64,000 nt of DNA from Shigella phage vB_SboS_Gloob. The stretch lies in sequence record OL615011; one strand, written 5' to 3'. The notes under the pieces were generated by a model. The model was given only the letters and a program-made list of their open reading frames with translations. It ran no database searches and had not been told where the DNA came from. A program made the position numbers and the translations under genes. This document shows positions 43,718 to 59,585 of this stretch, piece after piece. Each line of letters begins with the position of its first letter. Position 1 is the stretch's first letter.

Positions 43718-44126
43718 TATTAAGGGGCGATAGTTTAAGGGATAGCTGTCCGGACAGCGAATCCTCATAGAGAACGGCTGGGCGGCCAAACCCAGCAGGT
43801 GAGGTGAAAAGCCTCAGACCCCGCCAAATTTGTGTTGAAGAGACGTTGGGTCAGAACCAACTCGCCCGAAAGGGGGATCGTATAGCGGTAATTATGCTTC
43901 GACACAACAGCATTATGGGGAGCACCGATGAGATGAGGGTTCGGGCGAGTTAAGCGACGGCCGATTAAGTCCTGTACTCTGTTCAAGGTGGTCTTAACCT
44001 CCCCACCAAATATTGTTGGACTGCCAGCAAGCTCCGGTCTACGGCAGGCGTGATGGGATCGCGGAATTCAAATACCGCCTTGGGAGCACCTAAATAAACC
44101 AGTTGTTCAATAAACAGTTGGTGAGT

Positions 44127-44327
44127 ATGATGAAAACGTTCGGTGATTTTATTGCTGAGTGGGATGGCCTCGCTACCGACAACAAAGAGATTGTCGAGTT
44201 TGTTGAAAAGCGAGGTGACAAGTGGGTTGTCCTTGACCACACCAAGACGAAGGTTCTTGGTACACATGACACCAAAGCTGACGCTGATGCCCAATTAAGG
44301 GCGATTGAAGCGAACAAGCACGGATAA
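44127..44327 (+). CDS. hypothetical protein (about 66 aa) abutting tRNA-Asn
   Basis: ORF track (track start is TTG at 44103; ATG at 44127). Confidence 0.4.
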   Translation: MMKTFGDFIAEWDGLATDNKEIVEFVEKRGDKWVVLDHTKTKVLGTHDTKADADAQLRAIEANKHG

Positions 44328-44328
44328 A

Positions 44329-44404
44329 GACGATGTAGTTCAGTCGGTAGAACGGTGGACTGTTAATCCATATGTCACAGGTTCAAGTCCTGTCATCGTC
44401 GCCA
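44329..44404 (+). tRNA. tRNA-Asn (anticodon GTT)
   Basis: GACGATG acceptor, D-arm GTTC-AGTCGGTA-GAAC, anticodon loop CTGTTAA, T-arm ACAGG-TTCAAGT-CCTGT, CCA encoded. Confidence 0.8.
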
Positions 44405-44661
44405 GACAATGGGTGTGAACGAAAGTGAATAGGCACGAAGTACGCGACCGACAAGCTCCAAGCCTCTGTCCAATAGCCGAACGGAATCTGAAGACGACGA
44501 TAGTAACGCCCACCAAATTCAGAGTGTAGAGGCTACAGTAGTGCGCACCTCACGGGTTGCTACACCGGACACTCTGATACAAATCTGCCGCTGCGTGGAT
44601 TAGCTGAGGAAGGATGGCCGATGTCCTCGAGCGTGGCCCAGCACGCAGCGGTAGACCAAAT

Positions 44662-44745
44662 GTGAGTGTGGCAGAGCGGTCGAATGCAGGAGACTGTAAA
44701 TCTCCCCGTAACAGCGCGGTGGTTCGAATCCATCCACTCACACCA
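44662..44745 (+). tRNA. tRNA-Tyr (anticodon GTA), long variable arm
   Basis: Acceptor GTGAGTG/CACTCAC, anticodon stem GGAGA/TCTCC with loop CTGTAAA, T-loop TTCGAAT, CCA encoded. Confidence 0.7.
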
Positions 44746-44886
44746 AACACAGTAAGCGTTGCAGCCACGCTGTGTATCTGGCCAGAAGGCACTGGTCGCC
44801 AGTTAACCAATCGGCGCTGAGAAGCGCGGGGAGTTGGGCTACGGCAGATCAAATGCTCAATCGGGTGTGAAGCCCGTCTAAATTTC

Positions 44887-44970
44887 GCGGGAGCCATAGG
44901 GGTTGGACAGTAGCCGACTGATCATCGGCGACGATCACTGGACAGGTTCGAATCCTGATCTCCCGCTCCA
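44887..44970 (+). tRNA. probable tRNA-Ile (anticodon GAT) with atypical T-stem and long variable region
   Basis: Acceptor GCGGGAG/CTCCCGC, anticodon stem GCCGA/TCGGC with loop CTGATCA, T-loop TTCGAAT; geometry imperfect by eye. Confidence 0.4.
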
Positions 44971-44974
44971 AATT

Positions 44975-45063
44975 GGAAGGTTGCCCGAGAGGTTTAAGAG
45001 ACTCGACTGCTAATCGAGTGGGGCTTTTAGCCCCCGAAGGTTCGAATCCTTCACCTTCCGCCA
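44975..45063 (+). tRNA. tRNA-Ser (anticodon GCT), long variable arm
   Basis: Acceptor GGAAGGT/ACCTTCC, anticodon stem CTCGA/TCGAG with loop CTGCTAA, variable arm TGGGGCTTTTAGCCCCC, T-arm GAAGG-TTCGAAT-CCTTC, CCA encoded. Confidence 0.75.
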
Positions 45064-47145: not shown

Positions 47146-48444
47146 ATGAACGACAAAACTCAGAAACTTATAGATATCACCAAACAGGCGATAGAAGAAA
47201 ACGCCAGCCCTTTTATCTTTGCTCCATATACCCCGGATGCCCTTATGGGCGACCGCAAAACTATCTTCAATGCTCTCTCGCTTGACCGCAATGTCATCCA
47301 CTGGGAAGACTATCTCTACAAGCACACCCCGTGCGAACTCGTTGCCAACCCCGAAACCAATCAGCAGGTCTGGTTCAAGCGTGAAGATTACTTTGCACCG
47401 CTGTCCAATTACGCAAATGGTCAGCAGGGCATCAATGGCAGTAAGTTGCGCCAGGCCATCTGGCTGATGGTTGAGCACCTGAAGGCCGGAGGTTCCCCTG
47501 ACATCATCCACGGCACTGTCGTTGGTAGTCCGCAATCCCCTATGGCGACGGCAGTCTCTCGGCACTTCGGCGGCAAGACAACCACTGTACTCGGCGCGAC
47601 CAAACCAACCACTTGCATGAACCATGGCATGGTTGAGATGAGCGCCTGGTTCGGCAGTGAGTTCAACTTCGTCGGCTCCGGCTACAACAGCACGATCCAG
47701 CCGCGCTGTAAGAAGCTCATCGAGCAGGTGAATCCAAAGGCGTACTACCTGGAATATGGTATTACCCTGGACCACACAGTGCATTCCCCCGAGCGCATCG
47801 CAGGATTCCATATGCTGGGCGGCGAGCAGGTTGCTAACATCCCGGACCATATCACCGACCTGATCATCCCGGCTGGCTCATGCAACTCATGTACGAGTAT
47901 CCTGACCGGACTGGCGATGCATCCGAAGCCTAATCTGAAGCGTGTGTATCTGATCGGCATCGGTCCGAACCGCCTGGACTTCATTGAGAGCCGCCTGCGC
48001 ATCATCGGCAAACAGGCCAATCTACCGCATATCACAGACTTCACCCGCCGTTATCACGACAACCCAGACTATGTCCACGGCAAGAAGGAGCTTCAGCATG
48101 CCTCTAAGAGCGTTTCGCTGGCTGGCCTCCTAAGTGGTATCAGGCAGAAGGGAGAGCCAGAGGTCGTGCTTCCTCGTTTTGAGGTACACCATTGGGATCT
48201 CCACACCACCAATTGGGTTCGTTACAATGACCTGATGGATTATCAGTGGGGTGATATCGAATTGCACCCGCGTTATGAAGGCAAGGTCATGACCTGGGTC
48301 CAGCAACACAAGCCCGAGTTGCTCAATGAGAACACTCTGTTCTGGATTGTGGGCAGCAAGCCGTACATCGAGCCAATGAAGGCCGCATGCCCTGAGCTGG
48401 CTATCCCAGATGAAGTGAACGTCAACACCTTCACTCCTTCCTGA
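47146..48444 (+). CDS. PLP-dependent fold-type-II enzyme candidate (432 aa)
   Basis: GINGSKLRQAIWLM resembles the GGNKxRKLE lysine loop of the ACC deaminase / D-cysteine desulfhydrase family; by eye. Confidence 0.45.
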   Translation: MNDKTQKLIDITKQAIEENASPFIFAPYTPDALMGDRKTIFNALSLDRNVIHWEDYLYKHTPCELVANPETNQQVWFKREDYFAPLSNYANGQQGINGSKLRQAIWLMVEHLKAGGSPDIIHGTVVGSPQSPMATAVSRHFGGKTTTVLGATKPTTCMNHGMVEMSAWFGSEFNFVGSGYNSTIQPRCKKLIEQVNPKAYYLEYGITLDHTVHSPERIAGFHMLGGEQVANIPDHITDLIIPAGSCNSCTSILTGLAMHPKPNLKRVYLIGIGPNRLDFIESRLRIIGKQANLPHITDFTRRYHDNPDYVHGKKELQHASKSVSLAGLLSGIRQKGEPEVVLPRFEVHHWDLHTTNWVRYNDLMDYQWGDIELHPRYEGKVMTWVQQHKPELLNENTLFWIVGSKPYIEPMKAACPELAIPDEVNVNTFTPS

Positions 48445-48450
48445 TCCCTC

Positions 48451-48461
48451 CTAAATACCCC
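48451..48461 (+). promoter_or_regulatory. late promoter CTAAATACCCC with leader palindrome (ATACCCCA / TGGGGTAT)
   Basis: Exact motif about 22 nt upstream of ATG 48484. Confidence 0.5.
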
Positions 48462-48483
48462 ATACAATCCGTGTGGGGTATCT

Positions 48484-48942
48484 ATGAAAACCTTCCTGCA
48501 ATACCTACAAGAATCAGAACATCCTGTTTTCGGCAACCTGTTGTTGTATCATGGGTCTAATTGTGAATTCGATGAGTTCGACTTCAAGCGCTTCGGTCAG
48601 ACAGACTGCGGTACGCTCGGTCCTGGCTTCTATCTGACTGGGTTAGAAGAAGAGGCGCAGCGTTATGCAGACAACGCTGTCCGATATCGACAGGAAGGGG
48701 AACCCCACGTGATGAGTTTCCGTGTTCGCCTCAACAACCCTATTGTGCTGGATTCCAACAATGCCTCAGCCTGGGAAGACCGGATGAGGGAACTTGGCAT
48801 AGAACCAGGAAAGGTTCACGACAATGCAAAAGAGTTGATGGCTCAGGGCTATGACTCCGTCATCATTATTGATCCGGCGGCTCTGCCTATGGTGAGGGAA
48901 GTTGTTGTGTACAAACCAGGCCTGGCAGTGCGGGAAGCCTAA
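48484..48942 (+). CDS. late-expressed hypothetical protein (152 aa)
   Basis: ORF track; contains LLLYHGSN; function unassigned. Confidence 0.5.
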   Translation: MKTFLQYLQESEHPVFGNLLLYHGSNCEFDEFDFKRFGQTDCGTLGPGFYLTGLEEEAQRYADNAVRYRQEGEPHVMSFRVRLNNPIVLDSNNASAWEDRMRELGIEPGKVHDNAKELMAQGYDSVIIIDPAALPMVREVVVYKPGLAVREA

Positions 48943-48949
48943 ATACCCC
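48939..48949 (+). promoter_or_regulatory. late promoter CTAAATACCCC
   Basis: Exact motif about 28 nt upstream of ATG 48978. Confidence 0.5.
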
Positions 48950-48977
48950 ATATGGCTAACCCACTGAGGAACCCAAC

Positions 48978-49436
48978 ATGCCAACCTCCAAATTGTTTGA
49001 ATCAGAATACACCAATGACATCCCCGTATGGACTGGTGTTCAAGACGGTATCACGATTGAGCTGTTTGATCGTGAAGAGACGGGCGCGGAAGAGATCTAT
49101 GCAGGCGTTGAAGGCACTGATGTTGTTCGCGCCGCCGTAGCCCTTGCCACCTTCCTTGAAGATGCACCGATTGATGGTGTGCCGTTCGAGGCGCACGTAG
49201 ATCCCGAGGATCCAACGTCTATCATTATTACAGTGAATGGGGTGCCATACACTTCGTACAGTATCGAGACGGACGAAGAGGGCAGCGGAGCGCTGTATAT
49301 TGCCACTGACCTGCAGCTGGAAGACGATGAGATGGATTATCTGATTCAGAATGGGGTACTGCCGCCGTTCACCGATGAAGACCTGGACACAGAACTGGCC
49401 GCCGTCGGTGATGATGACGACTTCTGGGAAGAATAA
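48978..49436 (+). CDS. late-expressed strongly acidic protein (152 aa)
   Basis: D+E about 25 percent, almost no K/R; GAGGAA SD. Confidence 0.5.
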   Translation: MPTSKLFESEYTNDIPVWTGVQDGITIELFDREETGAEEIYAGVEGTDVVRAAVALATFLEDAPIDGVPFEAHVDPEDPTSIIITVNGVPYTSYSIETDEEGSGALYIATDLQLEDDEMDYLIQNGVLPPFTDEDLDTELAAVGDDDDFWEE

Positions 49437-49437
49437 C

Positions 49438-49464
49438 AAAAGGGGCGTTAAGCCCCTTTCTTTT
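49438..49464. terminator. bidirectional terminator AAAGGGGCG-TTAA-GCCCCTTTCTTTT
   Basis: Between convergent genes. Confidence 0.65.
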
Positions 49465-49837
49465 AAATCTCGCCCGTGTGGGCTGTGAATCTCATGGTAA
49501 CGATTTCGGTTCGCTCATCCTTTCGGAATTCGAATTTCAGACCTTCCCGGAGCATCCTTTCTTCCAGCAACTTCTTGAACTTTTTCATTTCGTGCTCTGA
49601 CGGATAATGAGAACATCTGTAAGCCTGGTGGAATGCCGTGAACATATTGTCAAAGGTGTGCCCACAAACGACGTATGCCATATCGTCAATTTCAACGCCT
49701 CGTGACGCCTCGAGCATAAGGTTTTTCTTCACTTCCTTGACAAAGATGTCGACAGCCTTTTCAACTTTGCTCATAGCATTCCAGGCCTGAGCCTGGGTTA
49801 TGGTTGCTTGCAGTTCCTGCGCGAAATTGTTCATCAT
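49463..49837 (-). CDS. hypothetical protein (124 aa)
   Basis: ORF track. Confidence 0.45.
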   Translation of the reverse strand: MMNNFAQELQATITQAQAWNAMSKVEKAVDIFVKEVKKNLMLEASRGVEIDDMAYVVCGHTFDNMFTAFHQAYRCSHYPSEHEMKKFKKLLEERMLREGLKFEFRKDERTEIVTMRFTAHTGEI

Positions 49838-50400
49838 TTCACCTTCCGAGTTGGATATTGGTTAAAGAGTTTACCCAGCTTCGACACGTTGATGATAGTC
49901 TGGGTCTTCCAGCGCTGGATCCCTTCCGGAGTAGTCACGGTCAGAATTGAATGCCCCCAAATATGGGAACCGTCCAGCACAGCCGCGCTGTGGCCGCCAA
50001 TCTTGTCTTCCAGTTTGCAGATGAAAGACTCATACTGATGTGCAGCGTTGCGACGGGCTTCCTTGATGAACAGACGTTGGCGCTCTGGATCGGCCTTGAC
50101 GATGTTCGGTGCACCTGGCCGATAAGAGCGGGTTGGTGGGTTATTGTCGGCAGTCAGGCTCATATACAAAGACTGCTTTGCCTTCATCCGATGGTAATCG
50201 TGATGCCCCATTCGGATGCCGACAGTTGACGGCCAAGGAGCACACTTCTGAAGATCCCAGCCATTGGCGGCCAGGTCGTCCATCACGTTCTTGATGATTT
50301 TGTTCGCGTACTGCTCGGCAGCTTCTTCGGCCTGCGACAGCAGAGGCTCAACAGCGATACGGACAGGAGTTTTGGGCATAGCCATGATATAGTCCTTCAT
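49834..50400 (-). CDS. hypothetical protein (188 aa)
   Basis: ORF track; start ATG overlaps stop of upstream small ORF (ATGA). Confidence 0.45.
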   Translation of the reverse strand: MKDYIMAMPKTPVRIAVEPLLSQAEEAAEQYANKIIKNVMDDLAANGWDLQKCAPWPSTVGIRMGHHDYHRMKAKQSLYMSLTADNNPPTRSYRPGAPNIVKADPERQRLFIKEARRNAAHQYESFICKLEDKIGGHSAAVLDGSHIWGHSILTVTTPEGIQRWKTQTIINVSKLGKLFNQYPTRKVK

Positions 50401-50561
50401 TCAGATACTTCAAATGCTAACAGGGTCACCATAGACATCATGGCACGAGTGAGTTCTTCTTTGACATCAGCGGAGAATGGGTACTCGCGGAGGAGTTTGG
50501 CCAATTCTTCCAATTTCGCGCCCACCTTCCGGTGCTCTGATTCGGTATATTCGATTGCCAT
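50397..50561 (-). CDS. small hypothetical protein (54 aa, MAIEYTESEH...)
   Basis: AAGGA SD; translationally coupled to downstream gene; too short for the ORF track. Confidence 0.35.
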   Translation of the reverse strand: MAIEYTESEHRKVGAKLEELAKLLREYPFSADVKEELTRAMMSMVTLLAFEVSE

Positions 50562-50583
50562 GATATAGTCCTTCAGTTCAAAG

Positions 50584-50606
50584 TAAGCCCCCGCAGGGGC
50601 TTCATC
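50584..50606 (-). terminator. hairpin GCCCC-UGCG-GGGGC
   Basis: Downstream of stop at 50610. Confidence 0.45.
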
Positions 50607-50609
50607 ATA

Positions 50610-51137
50610 TTAAAGACGGGAATCCAGCCAGGCGTTCTTTTCGTTCTGCCACTCCCAGGCCGCCTGGCCGCCTGCCATGATCACTTCCAAGGAAGGAGTA
50701 TTGTCATCTTCACCGCCATGAAGATCAGGGTCGAAGCCGTCATCTTCAGGATCGTCTTCGCATTCATTCTGATAAGCGGAATATTCGATATAATGGGCTT
50801 CGGCTTCGCAATCCATGTCGCCCAGAGCAGCCTCAAGAGTCATTTTACCTTCTGCGATCAGTTCGGCAGTCGCGTCGTCCAGGCCTGCGTCTTTCGCTTC
50901 AACGAAGAGTTCGTGACGTTTCTGGAAGAGGAAGAAGTTCATGGCATCAACGTATGAGTCAAATTTCTGTTTCAACTCTTGGCGGACGCCTTTCATGATA
51001 AGATGATACACCACCATGTAACGGCCAGCAGAAAGTTTGTCGCCGTCTGCCGCGCCGAAGAAGTTACCGAAGACGTGACCTTCACCTGCGTCAGACAGAA
51101 CTGTGTTTTTGTTTGCGGTTTCTGCTAAAATTTTCAT
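50610..51137 (-). CDS. hypothetical protein with acidic C-terminus (about 176 aa from MKILAET)
   Basis: ORF track; internal ATG chosen because early-promoter-like element lies just upstream. Confidence 0.45.
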   Translation of the reverse strand: MKILAETANKNTVLSDAGEGHVFGNFFGAADGDKLSAGRYMVVYHLIMKGVRQELKQKFDSYVDAMNFFLFQKRHELFVEAKDAGLDDATAELIAEGKMTLEAALGDMDCEAEAHYIEYSAYQNECEDDPEDDGFDPDLHGGEDDNTPSLEVIMAGGQAAWEWQNEKNAWLDSRL

Positions 51138-51232
51138 GATGTATTTCCTTCTCTTCAGATTGTTGTTTGTTCGTACTACAATTAGAAGTATACGCCAGTT
51201 ATTGAAGAAGTAAACTTTATTCAATAAATATT

Positions 51233-51445
51233 TTAATAAATTTTGAACTCTGCTCCCTTGTACGTTGCCGACCCTCGTTCTATGAGACCGTCTGGGACAA
51301 TCACCTTTGTCGGCCAACCACCATCTGGAGCCTTAACAGTCAGGCGTGTCTTGTGATCACCCAGCTGTGTCTGTTCATAGATCCTTCCGCGCACTATCGT
51401 CGCCCCGCCTTGGGTGACGAGCAATCTCTTGTTTACCACTTTCAT
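51233..51445 (-). CDS. hypothetical protein (70 aa)
   Basis: ORF track. Confidence 0.4.
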   Translation of the reverse strand: MKVVNKRLLVTQGGATIVRGRIYEQTQLGDHKTRLTVKAPDGGWPTKVIVPDGLIERGSATYKGAEFKIY

Positions 51446-51463
51446 TCCCTAAACACCAAAAGA

Positions 51464-51483
51464 AAGGGGAGTTTCCTCCCCTT
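51464..51483 (-). terminator. terminator AAGGGGAG-GAAAC-CTCCCCTT plus U-run
   Basis: Immediately after stop at 51488. Confidence 0.6.
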
Positions 51484-51487
51484 GAAC

Positions 51488-52060
51488 TTATTTCTTCAGA
51501 TCAGGCCACGCACCAGAGGTCGCAGTAGACCCAGCTGGGGGAGCAGACTCAAGATCGGGAGCACCCGACTGAGTAACAACAGTGGGATCTTTCTGTACGA
51601 CCCGGACCCCAAACTGCTTGAGAGCATCCACAGCCTGGGCTTTTCGCCCGTTGCTTTTGTAGTGGTTGTAGCCTTTGATACCGAATGATGCACTAATTGC
51701 TGTCAATAATGAATAGGTATACCATTCAGGTGCGGTATCGAGCGCCTGGAGGCCACCGATTACTGCTTTGATGAAATCCCCTTTATGATACTCACCAGGG
51801 AACAAAATCAGTTCCACAACCGGAGCAGTCATGACGAGGATAGCGGGTACGGCTAACACGATAGTCCAGAATTCGTCTTTCCAAGATCCGCCGACTTCGG
51901 TGATCTTAGACAGCTCCCAATCTGAGGAGGACTTGATGGCCTCCAGCTTGACGTCGTGTTTGGCTTGAACAACTTCCCGCTTATATTGAATCAAATCAGT
52001 CCCGAGGTTCCAGAGTTGCTTGAGCGCCCCTGGGATCATACCAACGAGGGGGATTGCCAT
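51488..52060 (-). CDS. membrane protein (about 191 aa)
   Basis: AAGGAG SD; hydrophobic segment FWTIVLAVPAILVMTAPVV. Confidence 0.45.
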   Translation of the reverse strand: MAIPLVGMIPGALKQLWNLGTDLIQYKREVVQAKHDVKLEAIKSSSDWELSKITEVGGSWKDEFWTIVLAVPAILVMTAPVVELILFPGEYHKGDFIKAVIGGLQALDTAPEWYTYSLLTAISASFGIKGYNHYKSNGRKAQAVDALKQFGVRVVQKDPTVVTQSGAPDLESAPPAGSTATSGAWPDLKK

Positions 52061-52139
52061 AATAAACTCCTTGGTCAATGAATGGCTCTATGGTTAAATA
52101 TGCCCACGTGCTAACGGCACGGATAACCTGGAGAATTAC

Positions 52140-55139
52140 ATGACCGTTTTCTATACGAACGTTGCCCGTCGGGGCAATGACCTGTTGATTCGAATCGCAG
52201 ATGACATGGGTAATCGCCGTCTGTTGAAAAAGAAATTCGAACCCACTCTCTATTTACCCACGGCTGATTATTCAAATGTTGAAAAGGTCGGCTTGCTCAA
52301 TGAACCCCTGGTGGCCAAGCAGTTCCCTGACATGCGCACTGCTGACAACTACCTTGAAGAGTACAAGGAAGTCCAGGGCGCGGCCATCTATGGACAGACG
52401 GATTATGCATACCAGTTCATCGCCCACAGTTTCCCCGGGAAGATCGAACCGGATTACTCCAACATCCATATCGCCAACCTCGATATCGAAGTGTTCACCG
52501 CCGGGTGGAAAGACGGGGAGATGACCAAGGGTCCATTTCCTCATCCGACTATTGAGCAGCAGACGTTCAAAGGTAGCGAGGCACGCATCCGCCGCTTCCA
52601 TCAGCAGGTACTGGCCAACCATGACTTCATCCGTGAGCACTTTCCCAGTTCCTTTATCAGCAACAACGTGACCGACCAGTTCCCTATCATTGATAGCAAT
52701 GGCAAGATCACCCAGGACATGAATGCAGCGTTCCCTATCACGCTCATCCAGCTTCAGGACATGGCGACCAATAAGTTCATGGTGTGGGGTATGCCGTGCG
52801 CGAAGGATCGTGCGAAGTTCAGATACGATCCAGAAGACGCGGAGATCGGTGGACTTGAGGTGGAGTACAAGGAGTTTGTCACCGAGCAGGATCTGCTGCG
52901 ATCTTTCCTTGACTTCTGGTCACAGCGTCAGTTTGATGGCTGGACAGGCTGGAACATCGAGACGTTTGATAGCCCGTACCTTGTTGAGCGCATGAACCAG
53001 GTTCTGGGCGAAGCCGAAACATCTCGCCTCAGCCCGTGGGGAATCATCAAGAAGCGCACCATCCGCGATAAGAAGGGTGACATCACGACATATCAGTTCG
53101 TGGGCTGCCCTATGCTTGACTACATGCAGATCTACAAGAAGCACACGTACACCACGCGTGAGCGGTACTCTCTTGATTGGATTGCGTATTGTGAGCTGGG
53201 TGAGAAGAAGATGGACTACAGTGAGAGCAAGTCGCTCTTTGACCTGTACTTCAACGACTATGCCAAACACACCCGATATGGTATCAAGGACGTCAAGCTG
53301 GTATGGCGTCTTGAGCAGAAGCTGCGTTTGCTTCAGCTGATGTTCGTCCTTGCGTACCGCACCAAGTCCAACTATGAAGACGGCCTGGGTACAGTGGCTC
53401 CGTGGCTGGCCATGTGCTACTATCGTCTGTATGAGAAGGGGATAGTGCCTAAGATCCAGCGTGTATACGATGGTCCGACCGATTTTGAGGGCGCATACGT
53501 CATGGAGGTGACACCAGGAATCTACTTCTGGGTCTTCTCTGAGGACTTGAACTCCCTCTACCCTCACATCATCCAGCAATACAACCTCGGTCCTGAGACT
53601 ATCGTTGGCGACAAACACCAGCGCCGTGAGATCATTGAGGCTATGTGTGAAGAGCTGGCTGCTCAGATGAATAACATGGCAACGCCGATGCACAAACGTC
53701 GGTTGATGAAAGCCCTTCACGACAAACTGTTGCGTGCGATTGACGAACGCCTGCAGGTTGTTGATGAACTGGTTGCCCTGGGTGAGTTCCACTTTGAGAC
53801 CCTGCGCCGCTACAACGTGTCCTTCACGCCGAACGTTCAGTTCTTCAGCAACGAGAAGATGTCGTTCCTGTCTGAAATCATGCGTGGTATCTACAGCGAC
53901 CGTAAAGTAGAGAAAGCCAAGGGTCTGAAGTATGAGCAGTGGGCTGGCTGGTGTAAAGAGATGGCGAAGGGTGACTTCCATCTTGAATCTGCGATGAAGT
54001 CGCGCTTCTATGATCCAGAGTGGTATGAAGAGCACAAGAACATTGATCTTGATGCACTGACCGAAGTGATGAAGAAGTGGGAAGATCTGGGGGTTGCCCA
54101 AGATACTCTTCAGCAAGGTCTGAAGATCTTGATGAACGCAGGTTATGGTGCGATCTCAAACGTCTGGTTCAAAGAGTACTTCAACCTCAACATCGCCGAA
54201 GCCATCACAACGTCCGGTCAGCTGATCAACAAGTGGAACAAGCGCTACACCGATGACTATCTGAACAAGCTGTGCGGCACGACAGGCCAGGACTTCGTCA
54301 TCGCGGGTGATACTGACTCCAACTACATCTGCATTGAGCGTCTTGTCAAGCAGTTGTGGCCTGATGTTACTGACCATCATGCTATGGTTGATAATATCGA
54401 CCAATGGATCAAGGACAACTACCAGCCGAAGACCAATGAGTGGGCACAGCTTCTGTGTAACACCATGAACGGATTTGAACAGCGCATGGTGTGGGAGCGT
54501 GAAGTAATTGCATCAGCTGCCGTCTGGCGAGCCAAGAAGATGTATGCCATGGCCGTGTACGACAGTGAGGGTATCAAGTACGAGAAGCCGAAGATCAAGT
54601 TCAAAGGTCTGGAAGCCCGTAAGTCCACCACGCCGGAATGGTGTCGTGAGCGTCTTGTTAAGTGCTATGAGAAGATCCTGCTCGGCACCGAAGAGGAAGT
54701 ACAGACGCTCATCTCCCAGTACAAAGAGGAGTACATGAAGCTCTCTGTAGACGATATCGCCAAGGCATCCGGTGTGTCCGACATAGAGAAGTGTGTGGCC
54801 GCCGACGGCTCGTTCATCTCTGGTGCTCACTATGCTGCCAAGGCATGTGTGGGTTACAACCGCATGGTAGAGAAGAACGAAGACCTCGGCCTGCCGATGA
54901 TTGAGTCGGGTGATAAGGTCAACATGGTACTGCTGAAGAATGGCAACCCGTTTGGCCAGAATTACTTCGCATATCCTGAGTTCTTCCCCGAGGAACTGGG
55001 TATGGGTAAATGGGTGGATTACCATACAGCCTTTGAGAAGTCCTTCATCGACCCTATTCAGTCCATCCTTGACGTGGTCGGCTGGTCACACAAGCGTCGT
55101 GTGAACCTTCTTGCCATGATGCAAAAGAAGAAAGGTTGA
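52140..55139 (+). CDS. DNA polymerase, family B, T4 gp43-like (999 aa)
   Basis: Exo I NLDIEVF, motif A DLNSLYPHII, motif C IAGDTDS. Confidence 0.95.
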   Translation: MTVFYTNVARRGNDLLIRIADDMGNRRLLKKKFEPTLYLPTADYSNVEKVGLLNEPLVAKQFPDMRTADNYLEEYKEVQGAAIYGQTDYAYQFIAHSFPGKIEPDYSNIHIANLDIEVFTAGWKDGEMTKGPFPHPTIEQQTFKGSEARIRRFHQQVLANHDFIREHFPSSFISNNVTDQFPIIDSNGKITQDMNAAFPITLIQLQDMATNKFMVWGMPCAKDRAKFRYDPEDAEIGGLEVEYKEFVTEQDLLRSFLDFWSQRQFDGWTGWNIETFDSPYLVERMNQVLGEAETSRLSPWGIIKKRTIRDKKGDITTYQFVGCPMLDYMQIYKKHTYTTRERYSLDWIAYCELGEKKMDYSESKSLFDLYFNDYAKHTRYGIKDVKLVWRLEQKLRLLQLMFVLAYRTKSNYEDGLGTVAPWLAMCYYRLYEKGIVPKIQRVYDGPTDFEGAYVMEVTPGIYFWVFSEDLNSLYPHIIQQYNLGPETIVGDKHQRREIIEAMCEELAAQMNNMATPMHKRRLMKALHDKLLRAIDERLQVVDELVALGEFHFETLRRYNVSFTPNVQFFSNEKMSFLSEIMRGIYSDRKVEKAKGLKYEQWAGWCKEMAKGDFHLESAMKSRFYDPEWYEEHKNIDLDALTEVMKKWEDLGVAQDTLQQGLKILMNAGYGAISNVWFKEYFNLNIAEAITTSGQLINKWNKRYTDDYLNKLCGTTGQDFVIAGDTDSNYICIERLVKQLWPDVTDHHAMVDNIDQWIKDNYQPKTNEWAQLLCNTMNGFEQRMVWEREVIASAAVWRAKKMYAMAVYDSEGIKYEKPKIKFKGLEARKSTTPEWCRERLVKCYEKILLGTEEEVQTLISQYKEEYMKLSVDDIAKASGVSDIEKCVAADGSFISGAHYAAKACVGYNRMVEKNEDLGLPMIESGDKVNMVLLKNGNPFGQNYFAYPEFFPEELGMGKWVDYHTAFEKSFIDPIQSILDVVGWSHKRRVNLLAMMQKKKG

Positions 55140-55173
55140 TTCAATAAACCAAAGGGGGATATAATTCCCCCTG
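55136..55173 (+). promoter_or_regulatory. sigma70-like promoter TTGATT-N18-TATAAT with the -10 hexamer in the loop of hairpin AAGGGGGA..TCCCCCT
   Basis: Overlaps polymerase stop codon; also plausible as polymerase terminator. Confidence 0.4.
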
Positions 55174-55201
55174 TTAACCCTTTGACAAACAGGTGATTGA
55201 A

Positions 55202-55543
55202 ATGAAACTCAATAAGATTCTTCTGGTGTGTGCTCTGGCTTTCTCTACCACCGCATGCTCTACCCTTGTGGACGTTGCGTCTACTGTAGACCTTGACGCG
55301 CCGACGTTCACCAATGAGCAGGCCGTGTCTAAGATGGAAGATACCATCAAGGCTCATGCCGCTCTTGACAACACCACTCCTGGTCCATTACAGACCGTCT
55401 GCAACTATGACGATTCCATCCAGGAAGACGAAACCTACCACTGCACCACCCACGTGAAGCAGGCTTCCGTCGTTCTGTATGCGGATTGTACCGAAGAACA
55501 GTGCGTTGCTACGGGCTACGACAAAGTTGAGGAAGACAAATGA
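55202..55543 (+). CDS. putative lipoprotein (about 113 aa)
   Basis: MKLNKILLVCALAFSTTACS has a signal peptide and lipobox-like motif. Confidence 0.5.
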   Translation: MKLNKILLVCALAFSTTACSTLVDVASTVDLDAPTFTNEQAVSKMEDTIKAHAALDNTTPGPLQTVCNYDDSIQEDETYHCTTHVKQASVVLYADCTEEQCVATGYDKVEEDK

Positions 55544-56319
55544 ACAACCTGGTCTGTCTCTATGATATGAAATCAAAGGTCGGTGGTCTGTATCGCGTCC
55601 TCGTGGATGTTGACCTGACGCTGGTCGACAGCCTCTCCCCTTGGGTGCAGTGGTTCAACGAAGAGAACATCGCTGCCGCTGCTATTGCTACGGGGGAACA
55701 TAAGTCATATCAGTTCCAGCCGATCACCAAAGAGTGCTATATGGCTCATGCTGGCGACCTGGCTATTCTGATGCGAGAACGTGCACATCCGGCGTGGTTG
55801 ATACGCCGCGTGTACCTCGCTGGGCAATGGATGTATGCTCCTACAGGGCGTGATCCTATGGATTGGTGGCGTCGCCCTGACCTGTACGCCAAGATGAACC
55901 CGCTTCCAGGTGCTTACGAGTTCCTGGTGAATCTGAAGAAGATTCTGCTCGAAGACTTTGACAATGTTGAATTCATCGCAGTGTCCAAGTGTGAGCCGGA
56001 ACACGAGCGCAGCAAGCGCCAGTTTGTCTATGACAAGTTCCCTGGTATCTTCAACGGATTTGTCAGTACTGACGAAAAGCATCTGCTGGCAGGCGATGTC
56101 CTGATTGATGACAATCCGAAGTATGTTGAGCCGTGCGGCCTGAACAACATCTTCGTCATCTTTGTTCCTCAGGGCAATTATGAAAAACTGGATCTTTCGA
56201 ATTCGGAAGATATGCTTTATATTAAACCAGTAGAAGGCCAGAACCACTTCGACTTCCTGAATCACAATATTGTTGAAGTGGTGAACCGCTTGATTGGTCA
56301 TTATCAATACGTCCGATAG
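55540..56319 (+). CDS. HAD-superfamily hydrolase, 5'(3')-deoxyribonucleotidase-like (259 aa)
   Basis: Motif I VLVDVDLTLVD (DxDxT). Confidence 0.55.
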   Translation: MNNLVCLYDMKSKVGGLYRVLVDVDLTLVDSLSPWVQWFNEENIAAAAIATGEHKSYQFQPITKECYMAHAGDLAILMRERAHPAWLIRRVYLAGQWMYAPTGRDPMDWWRRPDLYAKMNPLPGAYEFLVNLKKILLEDFDNVEFIAVSKCEPEHERSKRQFVYDKFPGIFNGFVSTDEKHLLAGDVLIDDNPKYVEPCGLNNIFVIFVPQGNYEKLDLSNSEDMLYIKPVEGQNHFDFLNHNIVEVVNRLIGHYQYVR

Positions 56320-56328
56320 GAGGACATC

Positions 56329-56634
56329 GTGCAAGAACAATCCAAGTTTGGGGAAACCCCAGACAAGCGTTCCGGTGATAGCGATATGGATGGCGTGATT
56401 ATCCATGTCAACAACTTTATTCGCCAGCAGGAGACTCCGACTCCTATCGGCGCAGCCAAGGCTCTTCATGACGTACTGGTGGAGATCGGTCAGCGCTCTG
56501 AAGCGGATGAAATCTTCTATAACTTCGACGACCAGTATAAAGTGAAGTTTGAAGAGAATGGCCGCCCACAGGTTGCTGTATTCTGGGCACCATGGATGGG
56601 CGGCGTGAGCTGGCGTATTGAGGATATTGCATAA
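56329..56634 (+). CDS. hypothetical protein (101 aa, GTG start)
   Basis: AGGAGG SD 7 nt upstream of GTG. Confidence 0.4.
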   Translation: MQEQSKFGETPDKRSGDSDMDGVIIHVNNFIRQQETPTPIGAAKALHDVLVEIGQRSEADEIFYNFDDQYKVKFEENGRPQVAVFWAPWMGGVSWRIEDIA

Positions 56635-57551
56635 TGGCTAAAATAATTGTAGTGAAAGGAACCAGTGCTACGGGCAAGGGTACGAGAGTGGTTCAGTTCA
56701 TCGAATGGCTCCGTACGAAGCTGGAGCCTACCGAACTAACCTACACTATCGGCGACAAGACGCGTCCGTTTGGGCTGAAGTTTGAAGAGATGAAGTTAAT
56801 CTTCGTCGGCCAGTACACTGTGTCCAACAAATCTGGCCTGGCCTCCTGGACTTCCATGGATGCTATCCACGCGGCCACAGGCTCCGGCGATATCGCTCGT
56901 GACCTGGTCAAAGGCTGGCTGGCCCAGGGTTACACCCTGGTGTGTGAGGGCGAACCTCTGATGCTGTCGGATAAATGGCGTCCTGAATGGATGTTCAAGA
57001 ACTATCCGATTGAATCACTGTCACTGCTGTACTTTGCATACCCTGACCGCTATCAGTACGATGCCCGCATCCGTGGTCGCTCTGGTAAAGAAGCAGGGGA
57101 CTCCGGCTGGTCGCGCAACGAATCTTACTCCAAGGAGTTTGAGAAGTCGAAGGCCGAAATGCTGGCGCTGGGCTTTACTGTGGCTGTTGATGATTTCAGC
57201 GGACAGGATATCCTGTATAAAGCACCAGAGGCCAACACCCAGGAGTTCACGACCAAACAGCAGTCCGAGTTGGCGGTGCTCCCATACGACGCCCCGCTGT
57301 GGGTTGTGGGTATTGCGATTTGTCATCAGATACGCTCTGAACTGCGCGATGTTGACATGCATACCAAAGACTTCTACGCCTACTGCGAAACCAATCCGAT
57401 GACCCGTGAGGTCGGTGGCCGGGATCCTTTGGCGCACAGAGTCCCTGAGAAGCCGCAGAAGGCATCCAAAACTAAAACCAAGGCGAGCGCCCAGCCAGAA
57501 GCACCGAAGGCAGCGTCGCGCTCTCTCCTTGACCTGATGAAGAAGGGGTGA
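56634..57551 (+). CDS. P-loop kinase, candidate 5-hydroxymethyluracil DNA kinase (305 aa)
   Basis: Walker A VVKGTSATGKGT; association with polymerase and PLP-enzyme genes. Confidence 0.45.
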   Translation: MAKIIVVKGTSATGKGTRVVQFIEWLRTKLEPTELTYTIGDKTRPFGLKFEEMKLIFVGQYTVSNKSGLASWTSMDAIHAATGSGDIARDLVKGWLAQGYTLVCEGEPLMLSDKWRPEWMFKNYPIESLSLLYFAYPDRYQYDARIRGRSGKEAGDSGWSRNESYSKEFEKSKAEMLALGFTVAVDDFSGQDILYKAPEANTQEFTTKQQSELAVLPYDAPLWVVGIAICHQIRSELRDVDMHTKDFYAYCETNPMTREVGGRDPLAHRVPEKPQKASKTKTKASAQPEAPKAASRSLLDLMKKG

Positions 57552-57553
57552 TC

Positions 57554-57751
57554 ATGAAACGGTTGTCTAATTATCTGTTATTCGTCGGTCTGGTTATGGC
57601 AGCCGTTTCAATGTGCGCTGCCCTAGCCTATCATTTCACCCCTCTGGACTTAACAACCTCAGAGAAGTTGAACGTGACTGTGATGTACTGTATTGGCGCG
57701 GTGATGTCTATCGGCGCTGCTGGTTACAAAATATTCAAGGAACCAAAATGA
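57554..57751 (+). CDS. small membrane protein (about 65 aa, two predicted TM segments)
   Basis: ORF track; ATG at 57554. Confidence 0.4.
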   Translation: MKRLSNYLLFVGLVMAAVSMCAALAYHFTPLDLTTSEKLNVTVMYCIGAVMSIGAAGYKIFKEPK

Positions 57752-58104
57752 AAATTCAAATCCCTCGCGATGCTGTGGCTGTCGCAATTGACTACACCGG
57801 AAACGCCAAGCACATTACTGCTGTGCGCCTGATTCCTGAAAAGAACTGCGTGATCCCTCAGTTCCAGCTGAATGCCAACCCGTCGTCTAAAGACTTCGGT
57901 CAGTGGCTGCAAGCGGCTCCGTTCCGTACCCAGACGAATGCCCAGATGTTCATCTCGGGTAAGACTCACACTGCAGCCCGTCTGTGGTTCGTGACCGCTG
58001 ACCGTCGCTTTATCGATATGTGGGAACGCCCGATGGGGTTCGTGAAACCAGAAGACATTCAGCTGGCTCCTGAAGAGGAAGCGAAAGATGACGCATCTAT
58101 CTAA
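57748..58104 (+). CDS. hypothetical protein (118 aa)
   Basis: AAGGAA SD; ATG 57748 inside longer track ORF. Confidence 0.45.
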   Translation: MKIQIPRDAVAVAIDYTGNAKHITAVRLIPEKNCVIPQFQLNANPSSKDFGQWLQAAPFRTQTNAQMFISGKTHTAARLWFVTADRRFIDMWERPMGFVKPEDIQLAPEEEAKDDASI

Positions 58105-59314
58105 AATGCCGACGGGATATACACCCCCGGCTGAATGGAAGTACCCGATTGACCTGGCTGTTGACTATCGCAAGCCGGAGAATCGCATGTACCTGCTCAA
58201 GGCTTGGGTGGAGGCGCTGTCCTACACCGAAGAGCACAACCAGCAGATGCGTCTGATGGATTATGCGATCGAAGTCACAGAAGGCATCACGCAGATTGAG
58301 AAGATCGAGCGCAAAATCTGGATGTCGTTCCTTTGGGGCTGCTGTTACAACGCCATCGGACCGTGGACAATCTACAGTGAGTTCCCTGTACCTCCTCAGT
58401 CCAAAGAAGAGATGCAGCGCTTCTCTGATTGGTACAACCTGAACTTTGAACGCATGCGCTTCGATACCGATTGCCGTTACCGCAAGTCCAAGATGATCCC
58501 GTGTGTTCAGTCCTACATTGATTGGCTGGCTGGGCGCTCCCAGATGGATGCTTTCCGCCCGATGTTAGAATTGGATATTCCTGTACACCAATTCACGAAT
58601 TTGTGGGATACGGCGATGTCCTGGAAATACTTCGGCCGCCTGAGCGCCTGGAACTTCCTGGAAGCCCTGAACATGGTGTTTGGCAACATGTGGGAGATTG
58701 ACGTCCCTGGCTTCATGCTGCGTGACCGTGATGGTAGTGAATCCAACCGCAACGGTGCGGCGTTCTTGTCCAACCGTGACGACTGGGTGACTAAGCACGG
58801 GAAGAAAAAGATCAACGGCTGTCCTATCACGGATGAAGAGTGTGACATCCTTGAGGCCGACCTTGAGCAGGCGTTCCAGGATTGTGTGGCCGAGTTCGGG
58901 CATCTGACGTTCATCAATCGCCTGAACTTTGAGACCTCCGGTGCATGCTGGCTGAAGAAGTTCTTCCGTGAAAAGAACACCCGTTACATTGGTTGGGATG
59001 CCGAGCGTACCTGGGATGAGATCGACTACATGGAACGCATCTGGCCGGAGTACTCCTGCGCAGCGCTCTGGGAAGCCCGTTCACTCTGGCTACCAGATAC
59101 CCTGTTGTGCGAAAAGGCTCCTCCAGGGCACGTTCCAGGCGTCCAGAAGTGGAAGATGCCTGTGTTCTTTGAGACTGGCGTTCCTCTACATATCTGGCAT
59201 CTGCAAAAGGGTACGCGCTGGGAGCCTGGCCAGGTGTATCGAGAATTGGGTAAACCGAAGATTGATAAACCGAAGTCCAACAGCGTCAACCTCATGGCAC
59301 TCTTGAAACGCTGA
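58088..59314 (+). CDS. hypothetical enzyme-sized protein (408 aa), candidate DNA base-modification transferase
   Basis: Size and neighbourhood only; no motif recognised. Confidence 0.3.
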   Translation: MTHLSKMPTGYTPPAEWKYPIDLAVDYRKPENRMYLLKAWVEALSYTEEHNQQMRLMDYAIEVTEGITQIEKIERKIWMSFLWGCCYNAIGPWTIYSEFPVPPQSKEEMQRFSDWYNLNFERMRFDTDCRYRKSKMIPCVQSYIDWLAGRSQMDAFRPMLELDIPVHQFTNLWDTAMSWKYFGRLSAWNFLEALNMVFGNMWEIDVPGFMLRDRDGSESNRNGAAFLSNRDDWVTKHGKKKINGCPITDEECDILEADLEQAFQDCVAEFGHLTFINRLNFETSGACWLKKFFREKNTRYIGWDAERTWDEIDYMERIWPEYSCAALWEARSLWLPDTLLCEKAPPGHVPGVQKWKMPVFFETGVPLHIWHLQKGTRWEPGQVYRELGKPKIDKPKSNSVNLMALLKR

Positions 59315-59518: not shown

Positions 59519-59545
59519 TCTGACTGCGATTGCGTTCTTCAATAA

Positions 59546-59585
59546 AGGGGAATGGGTTATTATTAGCCCGTTCCCCTTTCTTTTT
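59546..59585 (+). terminator. terminator GGGGAATGGG-TTATTATTA-GCCCGTTCCCC plus T-run; -10-like TATTAT in loop
   Basis: Preceded by GTTCTTCAATAAA; same architecture at 62342. Confidence 0.6.

What the first reader, a model, noticed from the sequence alone, without database searches (positions are those of the whole stretch)
47146..59314. Probable thymidine-hypermodification module around the DNA polymerase
A fold-type-II PLP-enzyme-like protein (47146-48444), an HAD-family deoxyribonucleotidase-like protein (55540-56319), a P-loop kinase (56634-57551) and a 408-aa enzyme-sized unknown (58088-59314) flank a family-B polymerase. ViI-like phages have been reported to hypermodify thymidine via 5-hydroxymethyl-dU in DNA, a DNA kinase, a transferase and PLP enzymes; this gene set fits that scheme, but the exact chemistry cannot be read from sequence.
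Basis: partly seen in the sequence, partly recalled or inferred. Interest (0 to 1): 0.6.

Follow-up and report, generated by a model that had tools for sequence, protein, structure and literature searches.

The report
ViI-type thymidine hypermodification gene set
This stretch of a ViI-like (Agtrevirus) phage genome carries close copies of the three enzymes that phage ViI uses to turn 5-hydroxymethyl-uracil in its DNA into an aminoethoxy-methyl-uracil, so it is a real DNA-modification module that has already been described and predicted for this phage group.

Summary
All five ORFs are at the stated coordinates. The window is an Agtrevirus (Ackermannviridae) genome, 96.5% identical over this stretch to Salmonella phage SKML-39.

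Three of the four flagged proteins are orthologues of biochemically characterised ViI enzymes:
- 47146-48444 is the PLP-dependent O-serinyl-thymidine decarboxylase gp226 (90% identity).
- 56634-57551 is the 5-hmdU DNA kinase gp243 (84% identity; Pfam HMUD2, 526 bits).
- The 408-aa "unknown" at 58088-59314 is the serine:DNA transferase gp247 (90% identity; Pfam ADDT, 210 bits).

The catalytic residues are present: PLP Lys100, transferase Cys287/Glu282 and the kinase P-loop.

The HAD/NT5C-like protein (55540-56319) has intact phosphatase motifs. It sits in a conserved, tightly packed gene string with the kinase and transferase, but its role is only inferred.

The dUMP hydroxymethyltransferase, kinase 1 and the gp160 paralogue lie outside the window. 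Lee et al. 2018 list SKML-39 and AG3 and predict 5-NeOmdU for them. Verdict: real, interpretation supported, already known, low interest.

The parts
47146..48444 (+). PLP-dependent (fold type II) decarboxylase, orthologue of ViI gp226. Converts O-serinyl-thymidine in DNA to 5-NeOmdU. The Schiff-base lysine is Lys100.
   Evidence: 90% identity to ViI gp226. Pfam PALP E 1.7e-7. AF2 model pLDDT 87; Foldseek best hits are D-cysteine desulfhydrase/ACC deaminase. K100 is invariant in 36 homologues and equals ViI K92 (PMC8989533). RBS before the ATG.
49439..49459 (.). Bidirectional terminator-like hairpin. It closes the PLP/ART/acidic-protein + strand unit and the convergent - strand unit.
   Evidence: 8-9 bp G+C-rich stem with T runs on both strands.
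52140..55139 (+). Family-B replicative DNA polymerase, intact at 999 aa. Presumed to incorporate 5-hmdUTP.
   Evidence: Pfam DNA_pol_B and DNA_pol_B_exo1. Syntenic with ViI polA, orf00236. Use of 5-hmdUTP is inferred from the SP10/PhiW-14 precedent cited in PMC5889632.
55136..55165 (+). Best sigma-70-like promoter match in the region (TTGATT-18-TATAAT). It lies in the gap between the polymerase gene and the next gene.
   Evidence: 10 of 12 matches. The total number of promoter-like hits in the region is not above chance, so this is only a candidate.
55193..55543 (+). DUF7292 small protein (ViI orf00237 orthologue), first gene of the string. Function unknown.
   Evidence: Pfam PF23964, 179 bits. 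Holds the same position after the polymerase gene in distant Ackermannviridae.
55540..56319 (+). HAD-superfamily NT5C-like phosphatase (ViI orf00239 orthologue). Candidate (d)NMP nucleotidase; pathway role inferred only.
   Evidence: Pfam NT5C 34.9 bits, cutoff 24.8. 79% identity to ViI orf239. Weak PDB match to the 5'(3')-deoxyribonucleotidase 3bwv, with DxDxT (D23, D25, T27) and LIDDNP (D190, D191) aligned. This subfamily is confined to Ackermannviridae.
56329..56634 (+). DUF7254 small protein (ViI orf00240 orthologue). Its stop codon overlaps the kinase start codon. Function unknown.
   Evidence: Pfam PF23912, 181 bits. Only 20 clusters, all at least 58% identical. The three contigs whose context was read (L001, L026, L027) are Ackermannviridae-type, and the gene sits in the conserved string there.
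56634..57551 (+). 5-hydroxymethyl-dU DNA kinase, clade 2 (ViI gp243 orthologue). Uses ATP to convert 5-hmdU in DNA to 5-phosphomethyl-dU. P-loop G9-T17 (GTSATGKGT).
   Evidence: Pfam HMUD2 525.9 bits, full length. 84% identity to ViI gp243. gp243 activity on 5-hmdU DNA was shown in PMC8989533.
57548..57751 (+). 67-aa conserved small protein (ViI orf00244 orthologue). Function unknown.
   Evidence: phrog_4514. 4-nt overlap with the kinase stop codon.
57748..58104 (+). About 118-aa conserved small protein (ViI orf00245 orthologue). Function unknown. The listed GTG ORF 57613-58104 is probably too long.
   Evidence: The phrog_4163 match starts at residue 46 of the 163-aa ORF. The homologues are annotated at 351-381 nt in ViI, RPN242 and SKML-39.
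58088..59314 (+). Amino acid:DNA transferase (aGPT-Pplase clade 2 / ADDT), ViI gp247 orthologue, predicted to be serine-specific. Converts 5-PmdU to 5-O-serinyl-thymidine. Catalytic Cys287 with Glu282.
   Evidence: Pfam ADDT 210 bits. 90% identity to ViI gp247. C287 is invariant in a 6-sequence alignment with M6 gp51, PaMx11 gp46 and two distant homologues and corresponds to PaMx11 gp46 Cys247 (PMC11472151).
59544..59579 (+). Strong terminator-like hairpin (16-bp stem plus T run) downstream of the transferase gene. Likely end of the transcription unit.

Best explanation
This is the post-replicative half of the ViI-type thymidine hypermodification pathway in an Agtrevirus genome.

1. Enzymes encoded outside the window make 5-hmdUTP. 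They include a ThyA-like dUMP hydroxymethyltransferase. This step is inferred.
2. The family-B polymerase (52140-55139) incorporates 5-hmdU into new phage DNA. This step is inferred.
3. The clade-2 5-hmdU DNA kinase (56634-57551) transfers the gamma-phosphate of ATP to the hydroxymethyl group, giving 5-phosphomethyl-dU. This was shown for the ViI orthologue.
4. The amino acid:DNA transferase (58088-59314) probably attacks C6 with Cys287, expels phosphate to form an exocyclic methylene, and adds the side-chain hydroxyl of free L-serine to give O-serinyl-thymidine. The activity and the requirement for the Cys and Glu were shown for ViI gp247.
5. The fold-type-II PLP enzyme (47146-48444, Lys100) decarboxylates the serine adduct to 5-(2-aminoethoxy)methyl-dU. 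This was shown for ViI gp226.

The expected result is replacement of roughly 15-40% of thymidines. That would make the DNA resistant to many restriction endonucleases.

The HAD/NT5C-like phosphatase (55540-56319) most likely trims the pyrimidine dNMP pool, for example by hydrolysing dTMP, so that 5-hmdU rather than T is incorporated. That role is inference only.
For: - Orthology and identical gene order with ViI: 90%, 84% and 90% identity for gp226, gp243 and gp247, and 79% for orf239.
- Curated family matches: HMUD2 526 bits and ADDT 210 bits.
- Catalytic residues are kept. K100 is invariant in 36 homologues. C287, K290, N297 and Y300 are invariant across ViI-, M6- and PaMx11-type transferases. 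The P-loop is GTSATGKGT.
- The PLP enzyme has fold type II.
- The biochemistry of the ViI proteins is in PMC5889632 and PMC8989533. The mechanism of a related transferase is in PMC11472151.
- The rest of the pathway is present in the genus type phage AG3: the thyA-like gene, kinase 1 and gp160 are 78%, 88% and 84% identical to ViI.
- The block PolB-DUF7292-HAD-DUF7254-HMUD2-(small ORFs)-ADDT is kept even in the most divergent family members.
- PLP and ADDT genes are adjacent in unrelated large phage contigs.
- PMC5889632 lists SKML-39 (96.5% identical to this window) and AG3 and predicts 5-NeOmdU for them. 5-NeOmdU was measured in CBA120, CBA6, the Vibrio phage 1.255.O (PMC5889632) and a Taipeivirus (bioRxiv 10.64898/2026.05.19.726188).
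Against: - No nucleoside analysis of an Agtrevirus virion was found in the papers searched, so the product is inferred from orthology.
- The window lacks the dUMP hydroxymethyltransferase, kinase 1 and gp160. Completeness of the pathway in this particular genome therefore cannot be shown from the window.
- The determinants of serine specificity in the transferase are unknown. The 10% sequence difference could in principle alter the donor.
- The role of the HAD has no experimental or independent comparative support. Its subfamily occurs only within Ackermannviridae, and NT5C-type enzymes are not specific to base modification.
Confidence: 0.9

Rival explanations
1. The same enzyme classes are present but the end product differs. 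The transferase of this phage might use a donor other than serine (glycine, threonine or a polyamine), or the PLP enzyme might perform a reaction other than decarboxylation. The DNA would then carry a modification different from 5-NeOmdU.
For: Members of the ADDT family use different donors: serine for ViI gp247, glycine for M6 gp51 and PaMx11 gp46, and putrescine for PhiW-14 gp109 (PMC8989533). Specificity determinants are not known, and no Agtrevirus DNA analysis was found.
Against: Both enzymes are 90% identical to the ViI proteins over their full length, with no indels in the catalytic regions. More distant Ackermannviridae and a Vibrio relative still make the identical 301-Da nucleoside (PMC5889632; bioRxiv 10.64898/2026.05.19.726188).
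Confidence: 0.05
2. The HAD/NT5C-like protein and the small DUF genes are not part of the modification pathway. On this reading they are general nucleotide-salvage or replication-accessory genes that merely share a transcription unit with the kinase and transferase.
For: Five ViI proteins (gp67, gp160, gp226, gp243, gp247) were sufficient to make 5-NeOmdU on 5-hmdU DNA in lysates, without orf239, orf237, orf240, orf244 or orf245 (PMC5889632). The terms 'nucleotidase' or 'deoxyribonucleotidase' do not occur in the main text of the two pathway papers. The HAD and DUF7254 families are confined to Ackermannviridae, so co-occurrence gives no independent signal.
Against: Tight packing with overlapping stop and start codons from 55193 to 59314. 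The order DUF7292-HAD-DUF7254-HMUD2-ADDT is conserved down to about 43% protein identity. M6 and PaMx11 place a differently folded (HD-domain) putative hydrolase directly after their ThyA-like gene, which suggests an analogous need for pool control. From my own knowledge, hmU-containing Bacillus phages induce a dTMP nucleotidase.
Confidence: 0.45
3. The proteins are ordinary metabolic enzymes, as public annotations say: 'threonine dehydratase/ammonia-lyase' for the PLP protein and 'guanylate kinase' for the P-loop protein. On this reading they are unrelated to DNA modification.
For: RefSeq and UniRef names for the homologues. PHROG label 'guanylate kinase'.
Against: No NCBIfam metabolic family matches either protein. 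The kinase matches HMUD2 over its full length at 526 bits. The PLP protein is only about 14% identical to its nearest solved folds but 90% identical to an enzyme shown to decarboxylate O-SerT in DNA (PMC8989533). The names are automatic transfers.
Confidence: 0.02

Closest known systems
Salmonella phage ViI (Kuttervirus) 5-NeOmdU pathway: gp243 and gp67 (5-HMUDK), gp247 (serine:DNA transferase), gp226 (PLP decarboxylase)
   Same: Same three enzymes at 84-90% identity. The gene order is the same, including the polymerase, orf237, orf239, orf240, orf244 and orf245. The catalytic Lys, Cys, Glu and P-loop are the same.
   Different: Different genus and subfamily (Agtrevirus, Aglimvirinae rather than Kuttervirus, Cvivirinae). 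The N-terminal 25-35 residues of the PLP enzyme are unrelated. The product has not been measured for this genus.
Salmonella phage SKML-39 and Shigella phage AG3 (Agtrevirus), listed as 5-HMUDK-encoding ViI-like phages in PMC5889632
   Same: 96.5% and 95.8% nucleotide identity over 47.0-59.5 kb, with the same genes.
   Different: SKML-39 lacks the ART-PolyVal gene found here at 48484-48942. It also has an extra small membrane-protein gene before the transferase.
Pseudomonas phage M6 (5-NedU) and PaMx11 (5-AcNmdU) clusters: gp54/gp49 kinase, gp51/gp46 glycine:DNA transferase, gp52 PLP decarboxylase
   Same: Same logic: a kinase, then a Cys-dependent transferase, then tailoring. The PLP enzyme and transferase are homologous (25% and about 20-27% identity).
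   Different: The donor is glycine, attached through an N-C bond. Tailoring needs a radical SAM isomerase (M6) or an FAD lyase plus an acetyltransferase (PaMx11). The kinase belongs to clade 1. The transferase is about 290 aa, against 408 aa here.
Delftia phage PhiW-14 (alpha-putrescinyl-T) and Bacillus phage SP10 (alpha-glutamyl-T)
   Same: Post-replicative modification of 5-hmdU in DNA through a phosphorylated intermediate. SP10 also carries a clade-2 kinase (PMC5889632, Table 3).
   Different: Different donors and end products. No PLP decarboxylation step.

Membership tests
5-hmdU DNA kinase clade 2 (Pfam PF18747 HMUD2; ViI gp243 type) | Full-length match to the family profile above the curated cutoff | tested here: met
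   525.9 bits against a cutoff of 25. Residues 1-304 match profile positions 1-298 of 298.
5-hmdU DNA kinase clade 2 (Pfam PF18747 HMUD2; ViI gp243 type) | P-loop (Walker A) nucleotide-binding motif | tested here: met
   G9-T-S-A-T-G-K15-G-T17. It differs from active ViI gp243 only by Gly to Ala at position 12.
5-hmdU DNA kinase clade 2 (Pfam PF18747 HMUD2; ViI gp243 type) | ATP-dependent phosphorylation of 5-hmdU within DNA | not testable with these tools
   Shown for the 84%-identical ViI gp243 (PMC8989533). Here it is inferred from orthology.
Amino acid:DNA transferase (Pfam PF18724 ADDT; aGPT-Pplase clade 2) | Match to the family profile above the curated cutoff | tested here: met
   210.2 bits against a cutoff of 26.2. 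Residues 49-296 match profile positions 2-231 of 232.
Amino acid:DNA transferase (Pfam PF18724 ADDT; aGPT-Pplase clade 2) | Essential active-site cysteine with a neighbouring glutamate | tested here: met
   C287 is invariant across six sequences including M6 gp51 and PaMx11 gp46 and aligns with PaMx11 Cys247 (PMC11472151). E282 lies five residues upstream (the F-E-T motif). Both are identical in ViI gp247. The exact register of the Glu relative to PaMx11 is uncertain by two columns.
Amino acid:DNA transferase (Pfam PF18724 ADDT; aGPT-Pplase clade 2) | Use of L-serine (O-linkage) as donor | not testable with these tools
   Shown for the 90%-identical ViI gp247 (PMC8989533). Specificity determinants are unknown.
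gp226/gp52-type PLP-dependent nucleobase-adduct decarboxylase (fold type II) | Tryptophan-synthase-beta-like (fold type II) PLP fold | tested here: met
   AF2 model pLDDT 87.4, pTM 0.85. Foldseek top hits are D-cysteine desulfhydrase, ACC deaminase and TrpB, E 2e-11 to 1e-7.
gp226/gp52-type PLP-dependent nucleobase-adduct decarboxylase (fold type II) | Schiff-base lysine | tested here: met
   K100 in G-S-K-L-R is invariant in 36 homologues and in M6 gp52. It corresponds to ViI K92, which PMC8989533 proposes as the aldimine lysine.
gp226/gp52-type PLP-dependent nucleobase-adduct decarboxylase (fold type II) | Pfam PALP (PF00291) match above the gathering score | tested here: not met
   31.4 bits against a cutoff of 35 (E 1.7e-7). 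The protein is a divergent member of the superfamily. This does not bear on orthology with gp226 (90% identity).
gp226/gp52-type PLP-dependent nucleobase-adduct decarboxylase (fold type II) | Decarboxylation of O-SerT in DNA | not testable with these tools
   Shown for ViI gp226 (PMC8989533).
HAD superfamily, NT5C 5'(3')-deoxyribonucleotidase family (PF06941) | Profile match above the cutoff and the four HAD motifs | tested here: met
   34.9 bits against a cutoff of 24.8. Motif I is D23-V-D25-L-T27. The Lys in E-R-S-K-R aligns with the Lys of 3bwv. Motif IV is L-I-D190-D191-N-P. The protein has an insertion between motif I and the core that is about 40 aa longer than in 3bwv.
HAD superfamily, NT5C 5'(3')-deoxyribonucleotidase family (PF06941) | dNMP phosphatase activity and its substrate preference (dTMP?) | not testable with these tools
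   No experimental data were found for any Ackermannviridae orthologue.
Complete ViI-type 5-NeOmdU system | ThyA-like dUMP hydroxymethyltransferase, kinase 1 (gp67) and the gp160 paralogue are present | tested here: inconclusive
   No match in the 64-kb window (tblastn, best E 0.31). By synteny the window covers only the equivalent of ViI 93.7-157 kb. The genus relative AG3 has all three at 78-88% identity to ViI.
Complete ViI-type 5-NeOmdU system | 5-NeOmdU is present in virion DNA | not testable with these tools
   Needs LC-MS.

The most novel reading that the evidence does not exclude
One or more of the uncharacterised genes packed into the same string as the kinase and transferase supplies a still-missing activity of the pathway. 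The candidates are DUF7292 (55193-55543), the insertion-bearing HAD (55540-56319), DUF7254 (56329-56634), and the orf244 and orf245 homologues (57548-58104). The missing activity could be the unexplained conversion of the remaining 5-hmdU to thymidine, or the choice of which roughly 15-40% of sites are hypermodified.
Probability: 0.12. Interest if true: 0.5.

Novelty: already known. Interest (0 to 1): 0.12.

Why it matters
The result matters mainly for annotation. Public records for this region still label the genes 'guanylate kinase', 'threonine dehydratase/ammonia-lyase' or 'hypothetical protein'. These should read 5-hmdU DNA kinase, O-serinyl-thymidine decarboxylase and serine:DNA transferase.

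There are also practical consequences. DNA of this phage should resist many restriction enzymes, and its modified thymidines may affect sequencing and cloning. This is relevant when Agtrevirus phages are used for biocontrol or therapy.

The finding does not open a new question. The only open points are the role of the HAD and small DUF genes, and how the unmodified thymidines arise.

Tried and rejected
- tblastn of ViI gp67, the ThyA-like orf66 and gp160 against the window found nothing (best E 0.31). These parts of the pathway are outside the window.
- Sequence searches of the PDB with the PLP enzyme, kinase and transferase gave no hits. Only the HAD gave weak NT5C hits.
- NCBIfam gave no hit for any of ten proteins in the region. 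PHROGs gave only 'unknown function' or misleading labels.
- A 4-sequence MAFFT alignment placed the conserved cysteine at C341, after an 80-residue gap. BLASTP against PaMx11 gp46 was not significant. Adding two intermediate homologues moved the invariant cysteine to C287, which lies within the region matched by the Pfam ADDT profile. I adopted C287. All three candidate cysteines are conserved with ViI in any case.
- I tried to test by co-occurrence outside the family whether DUF7254 and the HAD belong to the pathway. Both are confined to Ackermannviridae-like sequences, so the test carries no information.
- A viral-contig scan with the kinase returned only close relatives.
- The supplement of PMC8989533, which holds the mutated residue numbers, and the EcoSal review (PMC11163837) are not held.
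- A scripted blastn against SKML-39 was not possible because that locus was not exported to the sandbox. Protein comparisons were used instead.
- I considered and rejected the 'guanylate kinase' and 'threonine dehydratase' readings; see the rival explanations.

Full report
**What is there**

The window is a 64-kb piece of an Ackermannviridae genome of the genus Agtrevirus. Over 47.0-59.5 kb, megablast finds 283 phage records. The best is Salmonella phage SKML-39 (96.5% identity, 96% coverage), followed by Shigella phages MK-13 and AG3.

Pfam assigns them as follows:
- 47146-48444: PALP (E 1.7e-7, 31.4 bits, slightly under the gathering score).
- 52140-55139: family-B DNA polymerase with its exonuclease domain.
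- 55540-56319: NT5C.
- 56634-57551: HMUD2, '5-hmdU DNA kinase 2' (525.9 bits, full length).
- 58088-59314: ADDT, 'amino acid:DNA transferase' (210.2 bits).

The "408-aa enzyme-sized unknown" has a precise identity.

**Orthology with the characterised system**

I fetched the Salmonella phage ViI (Vi01) record. The same genes occur there in the same order.

| Window gene | ViI orthologue | Identity |
|---|---|---|
| PLP protein | gp226 | 90% |
| Kinase | gp243 | 84% |
| Transferase | gp247 | 90% |
| HAD protein | orf00239 | 79% |

Lee et al. showed that ViI DNA contains 5-(2-aminoethoxy)methyl-dU (5-NeOmdU) in place of about 40% of T. They also showed that lysates with gp67, gp160, gp226, gp243 and gp247 make it from 5-hmdU DNA (PMC5889632). 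They later showed three things with purified proteins (PMC8989533):
- gp243 and gp67 phosphorylate 5-hmdU in DNA.
- gp247 transfers L-serine through its hydroxyl group to give O-serinyl-T, and needs a conserved Cys and Glu.
- gp226 decarboxylates O-SerT to 5-NeOmdU.

**Catalytic residues**

- The proposed aldimine lysine of gp226 (K92) is K100 here. It is invariant in a 36-sequence alignment that reaches down to about 42% identity and in M6 gp52.
- For the transferase, a first 4-sequence alignment put the conserved cysteine at C341, after a long gap. Adding two intermediate homologues from metagenomic phage contigs put the invariant Cys at C287, with K290, N297 and Y300 also invariant. C287 aligns with Cys247 of PaMx11 gp46, the nucleophile proposed from its crystal structure (PMC11472151). 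E282 lies five residues upstream.
- The kinase P-loop is G9-TSATGKG-T17.
- The HAD protein has DxDxT (D23, D25, T27), the motif III Lys and the DD motif (D190, D191). These align with the deoxyribonucleotidase 3bwv.

**Fold of the PLP enzyme**

No solved structure is detectable by sequence. I therefore modelled the protein from the 36-sequence alignment (mean pLDDT 87.4, pTM 0.85). Foldseek against the PDB returns D-cysteine desulfhydrase, ACC deaminase and its homologue 1j0a, then tryptophan synthase beta and serine/threonine dehydratases, at 12-16% identity.

It agrees with the threading result reported for gp226 in PMC8989533. A decarboxylase in this fold class is unusual, but it has already been documented for gp226 and M6 gp52.

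**Organisation**

From 55193 to 59314, seven ORFs are packed with overlapping or nearly abutting stop and start codons: DUF7292, HAD, DUF7254, kinase, two small ORFs and the transferase. The best sigma-70-like match in the region (10 of 12) lies in the gap after the polymerase gene, at 55136-55165. A strong hairpin plus T run lies at 59544-59579. The total promoter-like count in the region is no better than chance, so the promoter is only a candidate.

The PLP gene heads a separate + strand unit with an ART-PolyVal gene and an acidic protein. That unit ends at a bidirectional terminator-like hairpin at 49439-49459.

The block PolB-DUF7292-HAD-DUF7254-HMUD2-(small ORFs)-ADDT is preserved in the most divergent family members I could find, where the HAD is only 43-46% identical: Erwinia phage Bue1 and a metagenomic contig. 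Outside the family, PLP homologues at 43-47% identity sit immediately upstream of an ADDT gene in unrelated large phage contigs. This independently supports the functional coupling of those two enzymes.

**What is missing from the window**

ViI gp67 (kinase 1), the ThyA-like dUMP hydroxymethyltransferase and gp160 have no match in the window. By synteny the window corresponds to ViI 93.7-157 kb, whereas those genes lie at 37-39 kb and 87-89 kb. The genus type phage AG3 has all three at 88%, 78% and 84% identity to ViI. The pathway is therefore very probably complete in this genome, but the window cannot show it.

**The HAD protein**

The motifs indicate an active phosphatase of the NT5C family. 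However, neither pathway paper mentions it. It was not needed for reconstitution from 5-hmdU DNA (PMC5889632). Its insertion-bearing subfamily, like DUF7254, is confined to Ackermannviridae, so co-occurrence gives no independent evidence.

A role in draining dTMP so that 5-hmdU is incorporated is plausible. From my own knowledge, hmU-containing Bacillus phages induce such an enzyme. In addition, M6 and PaMx11 place an HD-domain hydrolase next to their ThyA-like gene. This remains inference.

**Novelty**

Lee et al. 2018 list SKML-39 and PhiSboM-AG3 in their table of ViI-like phages that encode 5-HMUDK. They state that, given similarity and synteny, these phages likely contain 5-NeOmdU (PMC5889632, read). 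A 2024 review states that the modification genes are conserved across the family (PMC11721090). A 2026 preprint confirmed 5-NeOmdU by HPLC-MS in a Taipeivirus. I found no nucleoside analysis of an Agtrevirus.

The finding is therefore a correct recognition of an already described system. Interest is low.

The only residual novelty is the chance that the co-transcribed HAD and small DUF genes supply unknown steps, namely formation of the unmodified thymidines or site selection. I rate that at about 0.12.

Noticed in passing
window 48484-48942 (+): A 152-aa ART-PolyVal ADP-ribosyltransferase-like protein (PF18760, 46.6 bits) lies directly after the PLP decarboxylase gene. ViI has it (63% identity), but the closest relative SKML-39 does not, so it is a variable gene within the genus.
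   Followed up: partly
window 48978-49436 (+): A 152-aa, extremely acidic protein ending in DDDDFWEE. It is 100% identical in SKML-39 and matches no family with a known function. It might be a DNA mimic or a protein-interaction tail.
   Followed up: no
L023 8631-12817 (ENA metagenome scaffold, 171 kb, T4-like context): A Tet_JBP dioxygenase gene is followed directly by a PLP homologue (43% identical to the window protein), an ADDT transferase and a Ploopntkinase3 kinase. This looks like the same kinase/transferase/PLP triad coupled to oxidation of 5-methylpyrimidine, possibly a cytosine-based hypermodification.
   Followed up: no
L025 10001-15213 (NCBI GCA_964402715.1, 183-kb contig): A PLP homologue and an ADDT transferase are followed by an unknown 258-aa protein and a 713-aa family-2 glycosyltransferase. 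This suggests further tailoring of an amino-acid adduct, possibly by glycosylation.
   Followed up: no
window 52140-55139 and 56634: The polymerase gene is intact here (999 aa). Several relatives (RPN242, PC3/PH4, ZQ1, A221) have it annotated as two CDSs; in RPN242 two unnamed ORFs lie in the gap, and PC3/PH4 and ZQ1 list a homing endonuclease in the region. RPN242 also has a SegD-type homing endonuclease between DUF7254 and the kinase, which is absent here.
   Followed up: partly
window 43642-45063 (+): A cluster of four tRNA genes: Met-CAT, Asn-GTT, Tyr-GTA and Ser-GCT. It lies in the gene-poor stretch upstream of the PLP unit.
   Followed up: no
window 26493-36551 (-): Four consecutive large ORFs (833, 740, 682 and 1010 aa) lie where ViI has its tail-spike cluster. 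They presumably determine host range. They were not analysed.
   Followed up: no
public records of relatives: There are systematic misannotations. Kinase 2 is labelled 'guanylate kinase', kinase 1 'terminase small subunit', the PLP decarboxylase 'threonine dehydratase/ammonia lyase', and the dUMP hydroxymethyltransferase 'thymidylate synthase'.
   Followed up: partly
window 47146-47250: The first 25-35 residues of the PLP enzyme are unrelated between this phage and ViI, while the rest is 90% identical. The AF2 model gives this N-terminal segment low confidence (pLDDT 50-63).
   Followed up: no
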